A stretch of DNA of 64,000 nt from a virus (lineage: Duplodnaviria > Heunggongvirae > Uroviricota > Caudoviricetes), in the IMG/VR virus record IMGVR_UViG_3300036885_000228, positions 30,368-94,367 of that record. One strand, 5' to 3'. The notes beneath the pieces are model-generated. The model saw only the letters and a program-made list of their open reading frames with translations, did no database searches and was not told where the DNA came from. This document shows, piece by piece, positions 21,503 through 57,925 of this stretch. Position numbers and translations under genes: made by a program. Position 1 is the stretch's first letter. Every line of letters begins with the position of its first letter.

Positions 21503-22801
21503 ATGATATCAATTTCAAAAGATGCTAATAAAAATTATCTTGCAAAAATTGTAAGATTAGAAGGACTCAAAAAACATTCAAATGCTGACAAACTTCAAAC
21601 TGTCATTATTGATTTTCAGACAGTTATTACTGACATGAATGCAAAAGATGGAGATCTTTATGTGTTTTTTCCTCTTGAATGTCAGATTAACTTTGAATTT
21701 CTTGCACAAAATAATTCTTTTCGAGATAAAGAATTAAACAAAGATAAAACTCAATCTGGATTCTTTGAGAAGAATTGTCGAGTACGTGCAATGAAACTCA
21801 GAGGTGAAAGATCAATGGGCTATATAGTACCTATATCTGTAGTAGAAAAATTTACTAGAGATCATCTGAGTGACAGGGTTGGTAAAGAATTTGATACAAT
21901 TAATGACATTTTGTTGTTAAAGAAGTATGTTACGGTAGTTTCTCAGTCACAGCAAAGATTTCAAGGTAAGAAACCTCGAATTTCTAGACTTGTAGAAAAC
22001 CAATATCGGTTGCATATTGAAACAGAAAATCTTAAAAAGAATGCTTTTATGATTAAACCACAAGATGAGATAATGTTGAGTTACAAACTTCATGGGACCT
22101 CATTCATTGTCGGTCATGTGTTAGGTAAGAAAAAATTAAATATAATCGAGAAGACATTCAAAATATTAGGCATCAAAATTCTTGATACTGAATATGACTA
22201 TTTTTATGGAAGTAGAAAAGTTGTAAAGAATGAATTCGAGACTAAATTCAAAAATGATTTCTATGATGGAGACCTTTGGTTAGATATCAAAGACGAACTT
22301 AAAGACAAAATACCAAAGGGTTATACCGTCTATGGTGAATGTGTTGGATATACTAAAGGAGGCAAATATATTCAAACTCAATATGATTACGGGTGTGCAA
22401 TGGGACAAAAGAAATGTTATGTTTATAGAATTACTCATACGAATATAGATGGATATGTTGTAGATTTGTCAACTAATCAAATACGTGAATTCTGCATAAA
22501 GTATGGATTGAATTATATTCATGTATTTTTTCAAGGTCAAGCAGGAGAATTATATCCCGAACTCAATCCTGAGGAGTATTGGCATGAAGAGTTCATAAAA
22601 AATCTCGAAAGAGATTATACCGACAAAGATTGTTTCATGTGTAAAAATAAAGTTGCTGAAGAAGGAATTGTTCTACGAAAAGAAGGATTATTCTCTTTTG
22701 AAGCATATAAACTTAAATCGTTTCGTTTTTATGAATGGGAAACTTCTCAATTAGACAAAGAAGTTACTCGTCTTGAAGACGTGACTGGTTTTGACAATTA
22801 G
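21503..22801 (+). CDS. RNA ligase (Rnl2-like KxHG nucleotidyltransferase) with N-terminal tRNA-binding OB domain (Myf/CsaA/EMAP-like)
   Basis: N-terminus ..KKHSNADKLQTVIIDF..NAKDGDLYVFFPLEC..KLRGERSMGYIV matches the tRNA_bind signature (HPxADKL...GD.V..A..G...K.RG..S.GML). Motif I SYKLHGTSF resembles the T4 Rnl2 EKIHGTNF. Later ..YGECVGY.. and ..EEGIVLRKEG.. resemble motifs IV and V. Confidence 0.6.
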   Translation: MISISKDANKNYLAKIVRLEGLKKHSNADKLQTVIIDFQTVITDMNAKDGDLYVFFPLECQINFEFLAQNNSFRDKELNKDKTQSGFFEKNCRVRAMKLRGERSMGYIVPISVVEKFTRDHLSDRVGKEFDTINDILLLKKYVTVVSQSQQRFQGKKPRISRLVENQYRLHIETENLKKNAFMIKPQDEIMLSYKLHGTSFIVGHVLGKKKLNIIEKTFKILGIKILDTEYDYFYGSRKVVKNEFETKFKNDFYDGDLWLDIKDELKDKIPKGYTVYGECVGYTKGGKYIQTQYDYGCAMGQKKCYVYRITHTNIDGYVVDLSTNQIREFCIKYGLNYIHVFFQGQAGELYPELNPEEYWHEEFIKNLERDYTDKDCFMCKNKVAEEGIVLRKEGLFSFEAYKLKSFRFYEWETSQLDKEVTRLEDVTGFDN

Positions 22802-52815: not shown

Positions 52816-53313
52816 ATGATAAGAGGTACTCATCATTCTAAAGTATCGAAATTAAAAATTAGTGTTTATCGTACAGGGAAAAAACATTCAACAGAAACGC
52901 GATTAAAGATATCGGCAAACCATAAAGGAATGTTAGGGAAAACATTTAGTGAAGAATCAAGAAAAAAAATTGGATTAGGAAATAGTGTCTATATAGGAGA
53001 AAAAAATTCAAGATGGATAAAAGACAGAAGTTTTCTAATTTATCCTGATGAATGGAAAGAAGAGTTAAAAGATTCAATTCGGAAGAGAGATAATTACACT
53101 TGTAAAATGCCTGGATGTGTCATTCATCAAAATGAACTTAAAGGAAGATTCAAGAAACTCGATGTTCACCATATTGACTATAATAAGAAAAACCTTAATC
53201 CAAATAATCTTGTTACTCTTTGCAGAAAGCATCACATTAAAACAAATTCAAATAGAAAATATTGGAAAGAATTTTTTTATAAAATAATTAAAAATATAAT
53301 AATCTGGAAGTGA
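52816..53313 (+). CDS. HNH homing-endonuclease-like protein with NUMOD-like repeats
   Basis: ..ETRLKISANHKG.. and ..EESRKKIGLGNS.. repeats. C-terminal ..LDVHHIDYNKKNLNPNNLVTLCRKHH (HNH). Confidence 0.6.
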   Translation: MIRGTHHSKVSKLKISVYRTGKKHSTETRLKISANHKGMLGKTFSEESRKKIGLGNSVYIGEKNSRWIKDRSFLIYPDEWKEELKDSIRKRDNYTCKMPGCVIHQNELKGRFKKLDVHHIDYNKKNLNPNNLVTLCRKHHIKTNSNRKYWKEFFYKIIKNIIIWK

Positions 53314-53392
53314 TAAAAAAGTTACTTCATAAATTCTCGTCAAAAGAATTAAATCAAAATGACTTTTTTAGACTTTCTCCAGATATATTTTT

Positions 53393-54856
53393 ATGAGCAA
53401 GTTTAACAAAAAAAAGTTAGGAACAAAGACAATCAATAAAGCAGGAGGTCAAGCATTTAAGGAGACTACTGAGTTAGAACTCGTTTCTCTTTTACTTACT
53501 TCTTTCTTAAAGGACAAATTTTACGAAAAAGAAGAAGAGCAATTAGAAAGATTGCAGAATTTAGTCGGTGGGTTAAAAGACAAAAAATTTGCTGCTAAAG
53601 CTGCAATTTATGCTCGTACAGTTTTTGGAATGAGATCAATTACTCATGCATTGATTGGAGAAATTTGTAAGATGGTCAAAGGTGAACAATGGGTTAAGAA
53701 TGCAGTAGAAAAAGCAGTTTATCGTCCTGATGACATGCTTGAAATTCTTGCTTATGTTAGAGACGATAAAACTACACCAATTCCAAATTCATTGAAAAAG
53801 GGATTAAGATTAGCAATCAATAAGTTTGACAAGTATTCTTTAGCTAAGTATAAAGGAGGAGGACACGAATTCAAAATGGTCGATTTAATTAATTTAGTAC
53901 ATCCAAAAGGTTCTGGTAAATTGGCTGAAATTTTTAAAGAATTAGTTGAAGGGAAATTGAAGACTGAAAATACTTGGGAAAGAAATTTATCAGATGCTGG
54001 ACAAAAAGTTAAAGATATTGAAGACGAAAATGAGAAAGAGGAAGCATTGAAAGAAGCAAAGGATAATGTCTGGAAAGACATGATTAAGGAAAAGAAAATT
54101 GGAACATTTGCTTTATTGAGAAATCTTCGTAACATTGTTCAGCAATCTCCAGATTCAATTGACGATGCTTGTGAATTACTTGTTGATGAAAAGAAAATTA
54201 AAAATTCATTGATTCTGCCTTTTAGATTCAAAACTGCAATGGACGAATTAGGTAAGGTAGATGGTAGTAGGAAAATTTTAACTGCAATTAGTAAAGCATT
54301 GGATATTTCAGTTTCAAATGTGCCAAAATTTGATGGGAAGACTCTTGTAGTAATTGATAAATCTGGTTCGATGAATGGGAAACCAATAGAAATTGCTTCT
54401 ATCTTTGGTGCAATATTATACAAATCAAATGATGCAGATTTAATGTATTTTTCTGAAGGTACAAAGAATGTCAATCTTAATACCGAGGATAGTACAATGA
54501 CAATTGCTAATGAGATTGAACACGATGGTTGGGGTGGAGGAACTGATTTTACTGTAATTTTTCCAGCACTTACAAAAAAGTATGATAGGATTATAATCTT
54601 AAGTGATATGCAAGGTTGGGTTAATGATTGGAGAGGAGAATCAACACCAATAAGAGGATTTAGAGATTATAAAATAAGACTTGGTATCAATCCGAAGATT
54701 TATTCATTCGATCTAAACGGGTATGGGACACTTGAGTTCCCCGAGAATGATGTATTCTGCATTGCAGGATGGAGTGATAAAATTTTTGATGTAATGAAGA
54801 TTATGGAACAAGATAGAAATGCATTAATTAAAAAGATAAACGAAATTGAACTTTAA
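53393..54856 (+). CDS. rsr: Ro60 orthologue (TROVE domain plus vWA domain)
   Basis: N-terminus MSKFNKKKLGTKTINKAGGQAFKETTELELVSLLLTSFLKDKFYE...AAIYARTVFGMRSITHAL is TROVE-like. C-terminus ..LVVIDKSGSMNG.. is the vWA MIDAS DxSxS motif. Total 487 aa, as expected for Ro60. Confidence 0.75.
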   Translation: MSKFNKKKLGTKTINKAGGQAFKETTELELVSLLLTSFLKDKFYEKEEEQLERLQNLVGGLKDKKFAAKAAIYARTVFGMRSITHALIGEICKMVKGEQWVKNAVEKAVYRPDDMLEILAYVRDDKTTPIPNSLKKGLRLAINKFDKYSLAKYKGGGHEFKMVDLINLVHPKGSGKLAEIFKELVEGKLKTENTWERNLSDAGQKVKDIEDENEKEEALKEAKDNVWKDMIKEKKIGTFALLRNLRNIVQQSPDSIDDACELLVDEKKIKNSLILPFRFKTAMDELGKVDGSRKILTAISKALDISVSNVPKFDGKTLVVIDKSGSMNGKPIEIASIFGAILYKSNDADLMYFSEGTKNVNLNTEDSTMTIANEIEHDGWGGGTDFTVIFPALTKKYDRIIILSDMQGWVNDWRGESTPIRGFRDYKIRLGINPKIYSFDLNGYGTLEFPENDVFCIAGWSDKIFDVMKIMEQDRNALIKKINEIEL

Positions 54857-54869
54857 AAATATATTTGAG

Positions 54870-55200
54870 AAGTGAGAAAACGGGTTCATCTATTGAATTA
54901 ACATTCAATGTATTCTGGTTTGCGTAAGCAAACTCTGAAATTACTGAATAATTGCCAGCGGCAATTGTTTTAACATCACGACATGTAATGGGACGCAACA
55001 TGGTCAGTAAACTACTGATTCAAAGTTTTTAGAGTTATTTTTACTAATTCTAATTCAAAACTTAGTCTAGTAAGGAGACTTAATCCCACCGTTTTCAGTT
55101 TTCTCTCAAATATTATCTGGATTAGAATTTACATAGTTCCGAAAGTGAGAATAAAGTTACTTCTCCTTATGAAAATACTTTATTCACTTTTTCTTCGGGA
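54870..55200 (+). ncRNA. Structured noncoding region downstream of rsr (candidate second Y-RNA-like/ncRNA)
   Basis: No ORF. Several clean hairpins: attgaat-taac-attcaat, gtttgc-gtaa-gcaaac (GNRA loop), aattgcc-agc-ggcaatt, agtct-agtaagg-agact. Confidence 0.3.
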
Positions 55201-55204
55201 CAAT

Positions 55205-55275
55205 GCGACTGTAAGATAATGGCAATCTGACAGTTTTCCAAACTGTAAACGTGGGTCCGATTCCCACTAGTCGCA
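55205..55275 (+). tRNA. tRNA-Gly(UCC)
   Basis: Acceptor gcgactg/tagtcgc. D arm agat-aatggca-atct. Anticodon arm acagt-tttccaa-actgt (anticodon tcc). T arm gtggg-tccgatt-cccac with an unusual C at position 55. Discriminator a. No encoded CCA. Confidence 0.7.
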
Positions 55276-55294
55276 CAAAATTGTTTATTTGTAC

Positions 55295-55431
55295 GTGAAT
55301 AGAAGTGACATCAGAGTTACTTCTCATTGTAAGAGAGTGGTCATTGGTTCGAGTCCAATTTTTAGTCGAAAGGCTAAAATAGCTCAGTTGGTAGAGCACT
55401 TAAATTTCTCTGATAAATTTTCTCTATTCAC
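55295..55431 (+). ncRNA. Y-RNA-like RNA with tRNA-like module (T arm plus GAAA-capped acceptor-like stem plus D arm), closed by long terminal helices
   Basis: T arm attgg-ttcgagt-ccaat (55343-55359). Stem ttttagtc / GAAA loop / ggctaaaa (55360-55379). D arm gctc-agttggta-gagc (55382-55397). No anticodon arm follows. Terminal helix gtgaataga(55295-55303)/tctattcac(55423-55431) and inner helix atcagag(55310-55316)/ctctgat(55408-55414). Lies 440 nt downstream of the Ro60 gene. Confidence 0.55.
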
Positions 55432-55449
55432 TTATAAGTAAATAATCAA

Positions 55450-56280
55450 ATGAAGTATAATCGAGACAAGACATTGAAAACAACAAAATTAGATAATGAT
55501 GCATATTTTACACCTATTGAAATATCAAAAAGATTAATAGATAAGACATTTGAAATTATAGGTATTGATAATATTACAGAGAGTATAGACCCAAGTGCCG
55601 GAAATGGAAGTTTTAGTAAACAAATTAGGAATTGTACTGCTTATGACATTGAGTCTAATGATGAGACAATTATTAAACAGGATTTTTTACAATTACAATT
55701 AGATTATAAAAAGGGAAGATTATTCATTACGAATCCACCATTTGGTCCACAAAATTTTTTATCGGTTAAATTTTATTCAAAATGTTGTGATGAAGGTGAT
55801 TATATTGCATTTATTCAACCAATAAGTCAATATAAAAATTCTTTTCAGTTGTATAAATTTGATTTAATTTATAGTGAAGATTTAGGAATTCAAAACTATT
55901 CAGGAAGAAATATTCATTGTTGTTTTAATATTTATCGTCGCCCATTGTTTGGGATATTAAATAAACAAAAAAGATGGAAATTTGATGATTTTAAGATTTT
56001 TGAAAGACGTAATGTTAAGGGGAATATTATACAATTTAAAAGTGATTACGATTTTAGAATATGTGGTTGGGGTGCTAAATGTGGAAAGATATTAGATGAT
56101 ACTGAACTTTATGCTAAAGAATACGCAGTTACAATATATAATCAAGACGTTAAAGATAAGATATTTAATGCAATAAAAACTATTGACTTAAAGAAAGATT
56201 TCAATATTGTTAGTACTCCAAATCTTTCAATGCAAATGCTATATAGATATTTACAAAATAAGATTCCAGAATTAAAATGA
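55450..56280 (+). CDS. N6-adenine DNA methyltransferase
   Basis: Motif I ..IDPSAGNGSFSK... Motif IV ..LFITNPPFGP.. ((D/N)PP(F/Y)). Confidence 0.7.
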   Translation: MKYNRDKTLKTTKLDNDAYFTPIEISKRLIDKTFEIIGIDNITESIDPSAGNGSFSKQIRNCTAYDIESNDETIIKQDFLQLQLDYKKGRLFITNPPFGPQNFLSVKFYSKCCDEGDYIAFIQPISQYKNSFQLYKFDLIYSEDLGIQNYSGRNIHCCFNIYRRPLFGILNKQKRWKFDDFKIFERRNVKGNIIQFKSDYDFRICGWGAKCGKILDDTELYAKEYAVTIYNQDVKDKIFNAIKTIDLKKDFNIVSTPNLSMQMLYRYLQNKIPELK

Positions 56281-57045: not shown

Positions 57046-57130
57046 GCATTAGTAGACGACTATGGAAGTCGGCTTGATTGTAGATCAAGCATCCGTAAGG
57101 GTCATAAGAGTTCGATTCTCTTCTAATGCA
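57046..57130 (+). tRNA. tRNA-Tyr(GUA), type II
   Basis: Acceptor gcattag/ctaatgc. Anticodon arm cttga-ttgtaga-tcaag (anticodon gta). Long variable arm atcc-gtaa-gggt. T arm aagag-ttcgatt-ctctt. Confidence 0.75.
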
Positions 57131-57135
57131 CAATT

Positions 57136-57207
57136 GGAAGAGTAGCATAACGGTCAATGCAATGGTTTGAAGCACCATAGAAGAAAGTTCAATTCTTTCC
57201 TCTTCCA
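57136..57207 (+). tRNA. tRNA-Phe(GAA)
   Basis: Acceptor ggaagag/ctcttcc. D arm gcat-aacggtca-atgc. Anticodon arm atggt-ttgaagc-accat. T arm gaaag-ttcaatt-ctttc. Confidence 0.8.
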
Positions 57208-57215
57208 CTATAAAT

Positions 57216-57286
57216 GCTATAGTAGGCAAGAGGCTAGCCACGAGATTGCAAATCTTGAAACATGGGTTCGACTCCCATCTATAGCT
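57216..57286 (+). tRNA. tRNA-Cys(GCA)
   Basis: Acceptor gctatag/ctatagc. Anticodon arm cgaga-ttgcaaa-tcttg (one G-U pair). T arm atggg-ttcgact-cccat. The D stem is only 3 bp. Confidence 0.65.
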
Positions 57287-57291
57287 CAAAT

Positions 57292-57364
57292 GCAGGGGCA
57301 TGTTCCAAGGCTGGCGGTTGCGACTCCAAATCGTGACGGAAGAGTTCGATTCTCTTACCCTGTG
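57292..57364 (+). tRNA. tRNA-like gene with CCA (Trp) anticodon loop; imperfect cloverleaf
   Basis: T arm aagag-ttcgatt-ctctt. Anticodon-like arm tgcga-ctccaaa-tcgtg. Acceptor gcagggg/accctgt has one mismatch. No convincing D stem, so it may be degenerate. Confidence 0.35.
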
Positions 57365-57373
57365 CTATTAGGT

Positions 57374-57446
57374 TGGCAGGTATCATAACTGGTAATGATT
57401 TCGACTGTTAATCGAAAATATACTGGTTCGAATCCAGTCTTGCCAG
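57374..57446 (+). tRNA. tRNA-Asn(GUU)
   Basis: Acceptor tggcagg/cttgcca (U1-A72, as in many bacterial tRNA-Asn). D arm tcat-aactggta-atga. Anticodon arm ttcga-ctgttaa-tcgaa. T arm actgg-ttcgaat-ccagt. Confidence 0.8.
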
Positions 57447-57476
57447 CAAATATTACACTGAGAATTTAACATTATT

Positions 57477-57547
57477 GCCGGTGTAATTCAAAGGTTAGAA
57501 TGGCAGTTCTGTAAACTGCTCATAGGGTTCGAATCCTCTCACCGGCT
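57477..57547 (+). tRNA. tRNA-like gene with UGU (Thr) anticodon; atypical
   Basis: Perfect acceptor gccggtg/caccggc. D arm attc-aaaggtta-gaat. Anticodon arm gcagt-tctgtaa-actgc with C at position 33. The T stem is weak (taggg/cctct). Confidence 0.45.
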
Positions 57548-57725: not shown

Positions 57726-57925
57726 ATGTTTCAGATGATCGATTGTATTGGGCATATAAGAATATATGTACATTGACAATTTTATTCACTGAGGTCATTC
57801 TGGTGACAACAGCAAATAAGCAAGATGAGGTGGTATGGGCCTGGGGTCTGGAGTCGGATTAGTAAGACATCGCATTTGCATTGCGAAAATAACGGGTGCA
57901 ATTCCCGTCAGATCCACATCTCATT

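What the first reader, a model, noticed from the sequence alone, without database searches (positions are those of the whole stretch)
53393..55431. Ro60 (Rsr) orthologue followed by tRNA-Gly and a Y-RNA-like element whose core is a tRNA-like module
The 487-aa protein has an N-terminal TROVE-like region and a C-terminal vWA MIDAS motif (DKSGSMNG). That is the Ro60 domain organisation. By established knowledge, bacterial and phage rsr genes are accompanied by Y RNAs that mimic tRNA. At 55295-55431 the sequence reads T arm (attgg-ttcgagt-ccaat), then an 8-bp acceptor-like stem closed by a GAAA tetraloop (ttttagtc-gaaa-ggctaaaa), then a D arm (gctc-agttggta-gagc). This is a tRNA-like module with no anticodon arm. 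It is enclosed by two long helices (gtgaataga/tctattcac with a bulge, and atcagag/ctctgat) that could form the Ro60-binding stem. This architecture is what I would expect for a YrlA-type Y RNA. The intervening tRNA-Gly has C instead of U at T-loop position 55 and contains GGUCCGA...ACUAGUC, which is reminiscent of metazoan Y RNA Ro-binding strands. That may be coincidence.
Basis: partly seen in the sequence, partly recalled or inferred. Interest (0 to 1): 0.7.

Follow-up and report, generated by a model that had tools for sequence, protein, structure and literature searches.

The report
Phage Ro60 gene with Y RNAs
A tailed phage carries a Ro60 (Rsr) gene flanked by four small structured RNAs that share one docking helix; one of them is a tRNA-shaped Y RNA of the known YrlA type, so this is a divergent example of a known system, not a new one.

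Summary
ORF 53393-54856 is a Ro60/Rsr homologue. tRNA-Gly(UCC) lies at 55205-55276. Region 55295-55431 folds as two enclosing helices around a T arm, a GAAA-capped acceptor-like stem and a D arm.

Rfam's YrlA model aligns to this region end to end (41.8 bits, E 8e-8), but below its curated threshold of 69 bits. Relatives next to Rsr genes in metagenomic, viral and bacterial contigs show compensatory changes in all five helices, and the tRNA 15:48 pair switches between G:C and A:U. A pseudogene reading is therefore very unlikely.

The locus holds more than was reported. Three further modules (53302-53384, 54861-55113, 55137-55200) share the same signature: stem, AGUGA, stem, UUACUUC, then UUUUCU and the closing stem. 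This signature replaces the canonical GNCGAAN0-1G motif and recurs in arrays of one to five beside rsr in many contigs.

The GGUCCGA/ACUAGUC resemblance in tRNA-Gly is not conserved in orthologues and is probably coincidence.

Phage Ro60 with Y RNAs is already known. I rate this a divergent variant of moderate interest. Expression and Rsr binding are untested.

The parts
53302..53384 (+). Module A. A short Y-like hairpin: AUCUGGA-AGUGA-UAAAAAAGU-UACUUCA ... ACUUUUUUA-GACUUUC-UCCAGAU. It ends 8 nt before the rsr ATG. It is either a YrlB-like Y RNA or an Rsr operator in the rsr leader.
   Evidence: Model R1, which was built without this sequence, scores it 45.4 bits with E 7e-7 on the 64-kb window. 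Its fold has z -3.3. A short module sits 4-9 nt upstream of the rsr start in relatives L008, L009 and L011.
53393..54856 (+). rsr: a Ro60/Rsr homologue of 487 aa, with a TROVE (HEAT-repeat ring) region and a vWA domain carrying the MIDAS motif DKSGS.
   Evidence: There are 4260 homologues at E<=1e-30, and the nearest non-identical one is 64% identical.
54861..55113 (+). Module B. A multi-hairpin RNA of about 250 nt closed by a Y-like stem: AUAUUUGAGA-AGUGA-GAAAACGG-GUUCAUCU ... CCGUUUUC-AGUUUUC-UCUCAAAUAU. It starts 5 nt after the rsr stop codon. It is a candidate large Y RNA whose distal part has unknown function.
   Evidence: The fold has z -5.8, and none of 200 shuffles folded as well. R1 scores it 23.4 bits, E 0.013. 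L008 has a counterpart at the same position, with the shared 3' motif GAGACYUAAUCC and z -4.9. No Rfam family matches it. This is the weakest of the four modules.
55137..55200 (+). Module C. A short Y-like hairpin: UUCCGAA-AGUGA-GAAUAAAGU-UACUUCUC ... ACUUUAUUC-ACUUUUUC-UUCGGGA. It ends 4 nt before tRNA-Gly.
   Evidence: R1 scores it 36.8 bits, E 3e-5. Its fold has z -3.2. The same 4-nt spacing between a module and tRNA-Gly occurs in L008, L009 and L277.
55205..55276 (+). tRNA-Gly(UCC). A normal cloverleaf except for C at position 55. No CCA is encoded. It is probably a processing punctuation mark within the Y RNA cluster.
   Evidence: ARAGORN. Rfam tRNA at 62.4 bits. Fold z -3.7. Orthologues in L008 and L009 occupy the same position.
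55295..55431 (+). Module D. A YrlA-type Y RNA. Its parts are: outer stem 55295-55303/55423-55431; AGUGA 55304-55308; inner stem 55310-55316/55408-55414; UUACUUC 55317-55323; a variable hairpin; T arm 55343-55359; GAAA-capped acceptor-like stem 55360-55379; UA linker; D arm 55382-55397; UUUUCU 55418-55423.
   Evidence: Rfam YrlA at 41.8 bits, E 8e-8, model positions 1-114. Minimum-free-energy fold. Covariation in relatives. The tertiary signature is kept: U8, A14 and the covarying 15:48 pair.

Best explanation
The locus is a phage Ro60/Rsr ribonucleoprotein cassette. It has one protein gene (rsr) and four non-coding RNA modules on the same strand, with a tRNA-Gly embedded among them.

All four modules share a constant closing element. 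It consists of an outer stem, 5'-AGUGA, an inner stem, then (G)UUACUUC on the 5' side, and UUUUCU before the outer stem on the 3' side. I infer that this constant element is the Rsr docking site. It would be the counterpart of the GNCGAAN0-1G / GGUCCGA helix of known Y RNAs.

The distal parts differ. A and C are simple hairpins, like YrlB or Yrn2. B is a multi-helix RNA of about 250 nt. D is a circularly permuted tRNA mimic (T arm, closed acceptor-like stem, D arm, no anticodon loop), that is, a YrlA-type Y RNA.

By analogy with Deinococcus, Salmonella and Thermus phage phiLo, each RNA would tether the Rsr ring to a partner. Candidates are host PNPase, or a tRNA-elbow-binding protein in the case of D. 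Each RNA would also gate the ring's central cavity, redirecting RNA decay or repair during infection.

The cluster is probably transcribed together with rsr and cut out by tRNA-processing enzymes. RNase P cleavage at tRNA-Gly would leave module C with a 4-nt tail.

What is shown: the sequence and structure features, their covariation, and their association with rsr. What is inferred: Rsr binding, the partners, the processing and the biological role.
For: Protein identity as Rsr.

Module D:
- Full-length YrlA alignment, E 8e-8.
- RNAalifold on 19 relatives recovers five helices, 21 of 25 pairs with compensatory changes.
- On 122 distinct sequences, 94.3% of cells pair against 40-52% in slid controls. 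The covariation score is 0.598 against at most 0.095, and 0 of 500 shuffles reach it.
- Among 68 elements, the Levitt 15:48 pair is G:C in 27 and A:U in 24. U8 is kept in 66 of 68 and A14 in 67 of 68.

Modules A, B and C: in the whole 64-kb window they are the only other hits of model R1 apart from tandem-tRNA artefacts, and all lie within 2.1 kb of rsr.

Association with rsr:
- Relatives found through the protein alone (L008-L013, Rsr 56-64% identical) all carry 1-5 such modules with entirely different stem sequences.
- Of about 120 viral stretches found through the RNA motif alone, 52 encode an Rsr homologue within the fetched DNA.
- In 41 loci every module is on the rsr strand.

The window is a tailed phage that also encodes an RNA ligase and seven tRNAs.

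Literature:
- Y RNAs lie within a few kb of rsr on the same strand, in at least two kinds per species, one a tRNA mimic and one a long hairpin, and are processed from one precursor (PMC4201824).
- Phage Ro60 binds two phage Y-like RNAs and host PNPase (PMC12135203).
Against: - There is no expression or binding data. The host is unknown and the phage is uncultured.
- D scores below Rfam's gathering threshold (41.8 against 69 bits) and was not reported in the gathering-mode scan.
- The canonical GNCGAAN0-1G motif is absent from all 122 related sequences. The assignment of AGUGA/UUUUCU as the Rsr site is therefore positional inference.
- No promoter or terminator signal stands out.
- B has only weak model support, and its interior could not be tested for covariation.
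- The viral and genome loci were ascertained with a pattern that contains AGUGA, GUUACUUC and GGUUC. Invariance of these three in the matched copy is partly by construction. The protein-ascertained loci and the extra modules in each array are free of this bias.
Confidence: 0.82

Rival explanations
1. Region 55295-55431 is a decayed tandem-tRNA junction or a permuted tRNA pseudogene. On this reading the T arm comes from one tRNA and the D arm from the next, and the region has no function of its own.
For: Tandem tRNAs do imitate the T-then-D order. Model R1 gives spurious hits of 13-25 bits in the window's tRNA cluster at 57106-57547. A real tRNA-Gly lies 19 nt upstream. The literature suggests YrlA originally evolved from dimeric tRNA transcripts (bioRxiv 10.1101/312249).
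Against: - There is no anticodon arm on either side, and ARAGORN calls no tRNA here.
- The T and D arms are joined by a closed 8-bp GAAA hairpin.
- Both enclosing helices and the capped stem covary in relatives whose Rsr proteins are only 25-64% identical.
- The tertiary 15:48 pair covaries.
- The sequence is identical in four of the five contigs recovered for this protein from separate samples.
Confidence: 0.03
2. The shared AGUGA / UUACUUC / UUUUCU stem is not an Rsr site. It would instead be a generic phage RNA signal, such as a processing or stability hairpin, or a site for another protein, that merely tends to lie near tRNA and rsr genes.
For: - The motif differs from the published Rsr motif GNCGAAN0-1G.
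- The modules often sit beside tRNA arrays.
- About half of the motif-ascertained viral stretches show no Rsr gene in the DNA fetched.
- AGUGA can also pair with UUACU, so an alternative fold is possible.
Against: - Every protein-ascertained rsr locus examined has the modules directly adjacent to rsr and on the same strand.
- In the window the motif occurs only in the rsr locus.
- The motif occupies exactly the position of the Rsr-binding stem in the Rfam YrlA alignment.
- Loci without an Rsr hit are mostly short stretches or are expected chance matches of the 18-base pattern.
Confidence: 0.08
3. Module A is not a free Y RNA. It would be a cis-acting Y-RNA mimic in the rsr 5' leader, through which Rsr represses its own translation. 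Module C might similarly act only as a structured 5' leader for tRNA-Gly processing.
For: A ends 8 nt before the ATG. Short modules end 9, 7 and 4 nt before the rsr start in L008, L009 and L011. A 60-kDa ring bound there would overlap the ribosome-binding region. This last point is inference.
Against: In more distant loci the nearest module lies 13-600 nt upstream or is downstream of rsr. In M. smegmatis, Y RNAs encoded upstream of rsr are simply processed from the common precursor (PMC4201824). The two roles are not mutually exclusive.
Confidence: 0.3

Closest known systems
YrlA (Rfam RF02553; S. Typhimurium YrlA, PDB 6CU1; Chen et al. 2014, PMC4201824)
   Same: - It lies next to rsr on the same strand.
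- A long stem formed by the 5' and 3' ends has an internal loop.
- A YUAY element (here UUAC) follows the inner stem.
- The order is T arm, closed acceptor-like stem, UA linker, D arm, with no anticodon loop.
- U8, A14, G18G19, the UUCRANU T loop and the 15:48 pair are kept.
- The alignment to the family model is full length.
   Different: - The score is 41.8 bits against a gathering threshold of 69.
- The proposed Rsr motif GNCGAAN0-1G is replaced by (A/U/C)AGUGA on the 5' strand and UUUUCU on the 3' strand.
- The conserved junction is longer (GUUACUUC).
- The acceptor-like stem has 8 bp with a GAAA cap, against 6 bp in Salmonella.
Thermus phage phiLo Ro60 with Yrl1/Yrl2 (PMC12135203; PDB 9KOP, 9L5Y)
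   Same: It is a phage-encoded Ro60 (E 1e-28 to the window protein over its full length) with more than one Y-like RNA encoded beside the gene. That phage protein binds the RNAs and forms a complex with host PNPase.
   Different: phiLo has two RNAs upstream of the gene, identified through a CGAA motif, and no tRNA-like core is reported for them. The window has four modules on both sides of rsr, a different motif, one tRNA mimic and an embedded tRNA.
YrlB / Yrn2-type hairpin Y RNAs (S. Typhimurium, M. smegmatis, D. radiodurans; PMC4201824)
   Same: Modules A and C are long hairpins with a small loop. They share the putative Rsr site with the tRNA-like Y RNA of the same locus and are probably co-transcribed with it.
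   Different: There is no sequence similarity. Binding is untested. A lies in the immediate rsr leader.
Mycobacteriophage, CcrColossus and phage G YrlA RNAs (Chen et al. 2014)
   Same: These are phage genomes with an rsr gene and an adjacent YrlA.
   Different: They were found with the canonical model. The window's element belongs to a subgroup that Rfam's model does not reach at its curated threshold in any of 15 loci tested.
Metazoan Y RNAs
   Same: The terminal stem carries a conserved Ro60 site and the distal module is variable. Several paralogues exist per genome.
   Different: There is no sequence homology, and metazoan Y RNAs have no tRNA-like core. The GGUCCGA/ACUAGUC strings in the window's tRNA-Gly do not pair with each other in the cloverleaf and are not conserved.

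Membership tests
Ro60/Rsr protein | TROVE (HEAT-repeat ring) domain | tested here: met
   Pfam PF05731 at 2.9e-17, 63 bits against a cutoff of 23. PHROG 850 at 3e-42. PDB 9KOP at 1e-28 over residues 8-474.
Ro60/Rsr protein | C-terminal vWA domain with MIDAS motif DxSxS | tested here: met
   DKSGS is present in the translation and aligns with DVSGS of phiLo Ro60. Pfam VWA_CoxE reaches only 0.0011, which is below its cutoff. Close homologues carry PF25045 vWA_Ro60.
Ro60/Rsr protein | Closed ring fold that binds Y RNA | not tested
   No structure prediction or binding assay was run. The fold is inferred from the full-length alignment to solved Ro60 structures.
YrlA (RF02553 / Chen 2014) | Reaches the Rfam gathering score of 69 bits | tested here: not met
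   It scores 41.8 bits with E 8e-8, aligned over model positions 1-114. It is absent from the gathering-mode scan. Fifteen related loci also give no hit at the gathering threshold.
YrlA (RF02553 / Chen 2014) | Encoded within 4 kb of rsr on the same strand | tested here: met
   It starts 439 nt downstream of the rsr stop codon, on the + strand.
YrlA (RF02553 / Chen 2014) | Conserved T and D stem-loops separated by an acceptor-like stem-loop and a UA linker | tested here: met
   Read directly from the sequence. Folds. Covariation. U8, A14 and the 15:48 pair.
YrlA (RF02553 / Chen 2014) | GNCGAAN0-1G motif near the 5' end | tested here: not met
   D reads AUAGAAGUG, which keeps only the GAA-G part. 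None of 122 related sequences has the full motif, while 98 have AGUGA. Module C reads UCCGAAAG, a near match.
YrlA (RF02553 / Chen 2014) | YUAY at the start of the variable region | tested here: met
   UUAC lies at 55317-55320 and aligns to the CUAc of the model. It is invariant in relatives.
YrlA (RF02553 / Chen 2014) | Bound by Rsr and modified by TruB and Dus in vivo | not testable with these tools
   This requires biochemistry.
Hairpin Y RNA (YrlB/Yrn2-like), modules A and C | Long hairpin sharing the Rsr-site motif with the YrlA of the same locus, and encoded beside rsr | tested here: met
   R1 hits at E 7e-7 and 3e-5. Folds. Module A ends 8 nt upstream of the rsr ATG and module C starts 280 nt downstream of the rsr stop codon.
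Functional tRNA (tRNA-Gly 55205-55276) | Cloverleaf with canonical T loop T54-Psi55-C56 | tested here: inconclusive
   The cloverleaf is good and scores 62.4 bits. However, position 55 is C, whereas orthologues in L008 and L009 have U.
Tandem or permuted tRNA pseudogene (for D) | Residual anticodon arms and absence of selective constraint | tested here: not met
   There is no anticodon arm, and compensatory changes occur in all helices.

The most novel reading that the evidence does not exclude
The window may exemplify a distinct and widespread 'AGUGA-type' Y RNA class that current models miss. In this class one constant Rsr-docking helix (AGUGA / UUACUUC / UUUUCU) is fused to interchangeable distal modules:
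- a plain hairpin;
- a permuted tRNA mimic;
- in relatives, a non-permuted tRNA-like core with D, anticodon and T arms but no acceptor stem;
- multi-helix RNAs of 180-290 nt.

The modules are arrayed one to five per rsr gene, interleaved with real tRNAs, and released by tRNA-processing enzymes. The copy in the rsr leader (module A) would double as an autoregulatory operator.
Probability: 0.35. Interest if true: 0.65.

Novelty: new variant of a known kind. Interest (0 to 1): 0.5.

Why it matters
The role of the tRNA-like domain of bacterial Y RNAs, and the reason phages carry Ro60, are both still unknown. This locus and its relatives offer a compact natural series. One Ro60 protein comes with several RNAs that keep the same docking helix but present different distal modules, alongside phage tRNAs and an RNA ligase.

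That arrangement makes partner-swapping experiments and comparative analysis straightforward. It also suggests that existing covariance models under-detect Y RNAs in phages and in several bacterial phyla. The basic biology, a phage Rsr with Y RNAs including a tRNA mimic, is nevertheless already established.

Tried and rejected
- Megablast of the locus against GenBank phages gave no match. A protein-pattern scan of IMG/VR gave no confirmed relative. Relatives were obtained through tblastn and the protein database instead.
- The closest GenBank phage Rsr (LR745206, 52.6% identical) has no YrlA hit. It has only a long non-coding stretch upstream with a variant UAGCGA module.
- Four of the five contigs recovered for this protein are identical to the window across the region; the fifth, L003, could not be compared because an upstream indel threw off the fixed-offset comparison. 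There is therefore no short-range variation to exploit.
- The promoter and terminator scan gave 24 promoter-like sites against 22.9 expected, and no terminator in the locus.
- A two-sequence alignment of module B with its L008 counterpart was misaligned by MAFFT and is uninformative.
- Scans for the B-specific 3' motif returned only near-identical L008-like contigs plus chance hits in coding DNA. B's interior therefore remains untested.
- The raw 18-base pattern scans are expected to yield roughly 100 chance hits in IMG/VR and more in the genome collection. I filtered them with a strict stem finder, with model R1 and by presence of Rsr, and did not take the raw counts at face value.
- I considered the idea that tRNA-Gly mimics a metazoan Ro-binding helix and consider it unlikely.
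- The Annual Review on bacterial Ro60 (PMC10870794) was not available.
Full report
1. WHAT IS THERE

The window is AT-rich (about 30% GC) and all its large ORFs are on the + strand. It encodes tail proteins, a tape-measure-like protein, a primase-helicase, a family B DNA polymerase, an RNA ligase (21503-22801, phrog_968, 1e-61) and seven tRNAs. It is therefore a tailed phage.

ORF 53393-54856 (487 aa) is a Ro60/Rsr homologue:
- Pfam TROVE at 2.9e-17.
- PHROG 850 at 3e-42.
- Thermus phage phiLo Ro60 structures 9KOP/9L5Y at 1e-28 across residues 8-474, with the MIDAS motif DKSGS aligned to DVSGS.
- Xenopus Ro60 (1YVP) at 2e-5.

tRNA-Gly(UCC) lies at 55205-55276.

2. IS THE Y-RNA-LIKE ELEMENT REAL?

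In gathering mode Rfam reports only the seven tRNAs. In E-value mode the YrlA model RF02553 aligns to 55297-55432 over all 114 model positions. The score is 41.8 bits and E is 8e-8 for the 701-nt search, against a gathering score of 69. The alignment places the inner and outer stems, the UUAC (the family's YUAY), the T arm, the acceptor-like hairpin and the D arm where the family has them.

Comparative data had to come from distant relatives, because four of the five contigs recovered for this protein are identical to the window across the locus and the fifth could not be compared at a fixed offset. Contigs encoding Rsr proteins 56-64% identical (L008-L013) carry related elements. So do many IMG/VR contigs retrieved with an RNA pattern.

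An alignment of 19 such elements gives an RNAalifold consensus of five helices: outer stem, inner stem, T arm, acceptor-like stem and D arm. Of 25 pairs, 21 show compensatory double changes.

A covariance model built from that alignment (R1) found 139 matches in 96 sources. On the 122 distinct sequences:
- 94.3% of cells pair, against 40-52% when partners are slid by 1-3 columns.
- The covariation score is 0.598 against at most 0.095.
- 0 of 500 shuffles reach the observed values, and every helix has double changes.

That alignment is fitted to the model, so the numbers lean towards the structure. The independent MAFFT/RNAalifold result points the same way.

The tRNA tertiary signature is kept. 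Among 68 distinct elements with both arms, U8 is present in 66, A14 in 67, and the T loop reads UUCRANU. The Levitt 15:48 pair is G:C in 27 and A:U in 24. In D it is G15:C48.

They make a tRNA pseudogene or a tandem-tRNA artefact very unlikely.

The 348-nt gap between rsr and tRNA-Gly is highly structured (z -5.65). Reading it alongside L008 revealed a shared closing element in several RNAs. It runs: outer stem, then (A/U/C)AGUGA, then inner stem, then (G)UUACUUC, then a variable interior, then the inner stem's 3' strand, then 1-4 nt, then UUUUCU, then the outer stem's 3' strand.

The window has four copies:
- A, 53302-53384
- B, 54861-55113 (with GUUCAUCU in place of UUACUUC)
- C, 55137-55200
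- D

R1 contains none of A, B or C, yet it scores them at 45.4 bits (E 7e-7), 23.4 bits (E 0.013) and 36.8 bits (E 3e-5). Nothing else in the 64 kb scores except tandem-tRNA artefacts in the tRNA cluster.

The stems of A, C and D share no sequence. The outer stems are AUCUGGA, UUCCGAA and GAAUAGA. The inner stems are UAAAAAAGU, GAAUAAAGU and AUCAGAG. The motif itself is constant. That pattern fits a protein-recognised helix flanked by structure-only stems.

A and C fold as simple hairpins (z -3.3 and -3.2). B folds as a multi-hairpin RNA of about 250 nt (z -5.8). L008 has a counterpart of about 290 nt at the same position (z -4.9) with a shared GAGACYUAAUCC near the 3' end. I found no further diverse homologues of B. 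Its interior is therefore unverified, and B is the weakest call.

4. ASSOCIATION WITH rsr

Every protein-ascertained relative has one to five modules directly beside rsr.

In the other direction, of about 120 IMG/VR stretches found with the RNA pattern alone, 52 encode an Rsr homologue (25-52% identical) within the fetched DNA. The pattern has 18 specified bases and is expected to give roughly 100 chance hits. In the GTDB genome collection, 31 of 120 pattern-hit stretches have Rsr, mostly Verrucomicrobiota, Myxococcota and Bacteroidota bins, often beside large tRNA arrays.

In the 41 loci with both features, every module is on the rsr strand. None of 15 loci tested reaches Rfam's YrlA gathering threshold. 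None of 122 sequences has the published GNCGAAN0-1G motif, while 98 have AGUGA.

One caveat applies. The pattern used for ascertainment contains AGUGA, GUUACUUC and GGUUC. Their invariance in the matched copy is therefore partly circular. The protein-ascertained loci and the additional modules in each array do not share this bias.

5. MECHANISM

Shown:
- an intact Rsr gene;
- four adjacent same-strand structured RNAs with a common conserved helix;
- one RNA with a tRNA-like core under structural selection;
- a real tRNA in their midst.

Inferred from established knowledge (PMC4201824; bioRxiv 10.1101/312249; PMC12135203):
- Rsr binds the conserved terminal helix.
- The distal module recruits a partner. 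PNPase is the partner in Deinococcus, Salmonella and phage phiLo. For the YrlA elbow the partner is an unidentified tRNA-binding factor.
- The bound RNA also gates the Ro60 cavity.

AGUGA can pair with UUUUCU (A-U, G-C, U.U, G.U, A-U), which would make a continuous helix with a mismatch. It can alternatively pair with UUACU. All three elements are invariant, so covariation cannot decide between the two pairings.

The 4-nt spacing between a module's 3' end and the tRNA-Gly 5' end recurs in the window, L008, L009 and L277. This suggests that RNase P cleavage defines that module's 3' end. Co-transcription with rsr is plausible, but no promoter or terminator signal supports or contradicts it.

Module A ends 8 nt before the rsr ATG. 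Short modules end 4-9 nt before the start in L008, L009 and L011. A may therefore also serve as an autoregulatory operator. This is speculation.

For the phage, two roles have been proposed in the literature: hijacking host PNPase (PMC12135203), or RNA repair together with RNA ligases and tRNA-like partners (PMC7824862). The window's RNA ligase and tRNA set fit the second proposal but do not prove it.

6. THE tRNA-Gly SIDE NOTE

The tRNA is a good cloverleaf with C55. The strings GGUCCGA and ACUAGUC lie in the T arm and in the 3' strands of the T and acceptor stems. They do not pair with each other. The orthologous tRNA-Gly genes in L008 and L009 read GGUUCGA...ACAAGCC and GGUUCAA...AUCAGAU. 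The resemblance to metazoan Y RNAs is therefore one substitution away from a standard T arm plus an ordinary covarying acceptor stem, and is probably coincidence.

7. COMPARISON AND NOVELTY

Already known:
- phage-encoded Ro60 with adjacent Y RNAs (mycobacteriophages, CcrColossus, phage G, phiLo);
- the permuted-tRNA architecture of YrlA;
- the presence of two or more Y RNAs per locus, including a plain hairpin type.

What differs here:
- the conserved docking signature;
- failure to reach the curated family threshold;
- four modules per gene on both sides of rsr, including a 250-nt one;
- an embedded tRNA with fixed spacing.

I therefore rate it a new variant of a known kind, of moderate interest. 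It works like a YrlA/YrlB system. Strict membership of RF02553 as curated is not met on two tested criteria: the gathering score and the GNCGAAN0-1G motif.

8. VERDICT

- Confidence that D is a functional YrlA-type RNA partnered with the adjacent Rsr is about 0.8-0.9.
- Confidence that A and C are Rsr ligands is about 0.7.
- Confidence that B is one is about 0.5.

Noticed in passing
L009 4245-4375; L011 4528-4654; L012 4242-4369; also L029 2188-2320, L033 4904-5026, L044 724-856: Relatives carry a third module type. The same AGUGA/UUACUUCG/UUUUCU stem encloses a non-permuted tRNA-like core (D arm, anticodon arm, T arm; Rfam tRNA 45-50 bits) with no acceptor stem, followed by a small capped hairpin. 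ARAGORN calls one of them 'tRNA-Ile(aat)'. I did not find this arrangement in the YrlA papers read here. None is present in the window.
   Followed up: partly
window 55200-55205; L008 4768-4773; L009 4375-4380; L277 about 390: tRNA-Gly(UCC) begins exactly 4 nt after the 3' end of a Y-like module in four related contigs. The preceding module is of a different type in each: a short hairpin, a large RNA and a tRNA-like module.
   Followed up: partly
window 55205-55276 and 57844-57916: Two of the seven phage tRNAs have a non-U base at T-loop position 55. tRNA-Gly has C55 (loop UCCGAUU) and tRNA-Ala has G55 (loop UGCAAUU). The sequence is identical in the four contigs from different samples that could be compared with the window, so this is not a sequencing error.
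   Followed up: partly
window 21503-22801: A 432-aa RNA ligase (phrog_968, 1e-61) lies in the same phage. A related contig (L011) has an RNA ligase and an RNase T-like gene immediately upstream of rsr. Both fit an RNA-repair context.
   Followed up: no
window 55304-55323 (and the same elements in A and C): The invariant AGUGA can pair either with the 3' UUUUCU or with the adjacent UUACU (for example GAAGUGAC with GUUACUUC in D, 8 bp). This may be an alternative conformation or a tertiary contact. It cannot be resolved because all partners are invariant.
   Followed up: no
window 52816-53313; L003 2538-2921: The HNH/NUMOD3 homing-endonuclease-like ORF just upstream of module A is shorter (127 aa instead of 165 aa) in one otherwise near-identical contig (L003). 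This suggests a mobile insertion next to the rsr cassette.
   Followed up: no
window 55450-56280: The ORF that starts 19 nt after module D has an NPPF motif and weak methyltransferase similarity (phrog_5172 at 7e-26; phrog_799 'DNA methyltransferase' at 3e-9). Whether it acts on DNA or RNA is unknown.
   Followed up: no
L001 3430-3990 (LR745206.1, a 634-kb uncultured phage): The closest GenBank phage Rsr (52.6% identical) has no YrlA-type hit. It has about 560 nt of non-coding DNA upstream of rsr, including a 281-nt element closed by a variant module: UAGCGA ... AUACUUCG ... AAUUUUCU.
   Followed up: partly
L188, L194, L197, L198, L165 (Opitutaceae, Lacunisphaera and Verrucomicrobia genome bins): AGUGA-type modules and Rsr genes sit beside arrays of 10-20 tRNA genes in contigs binned as bacterial. 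These may be prophages or misbinned large phages.
   Followed up: no
L002 2497-2628 (crAss-like phage csAssE-Sib, OR575929): An unannotated YrlA-type element lies upstream of two tRNAs and the annotated 'Ro sixty-related protein'. Model R1 scores it 65.8 bits, while Rfam YrlA gives only 28.5 bits.
   Followed up: partly
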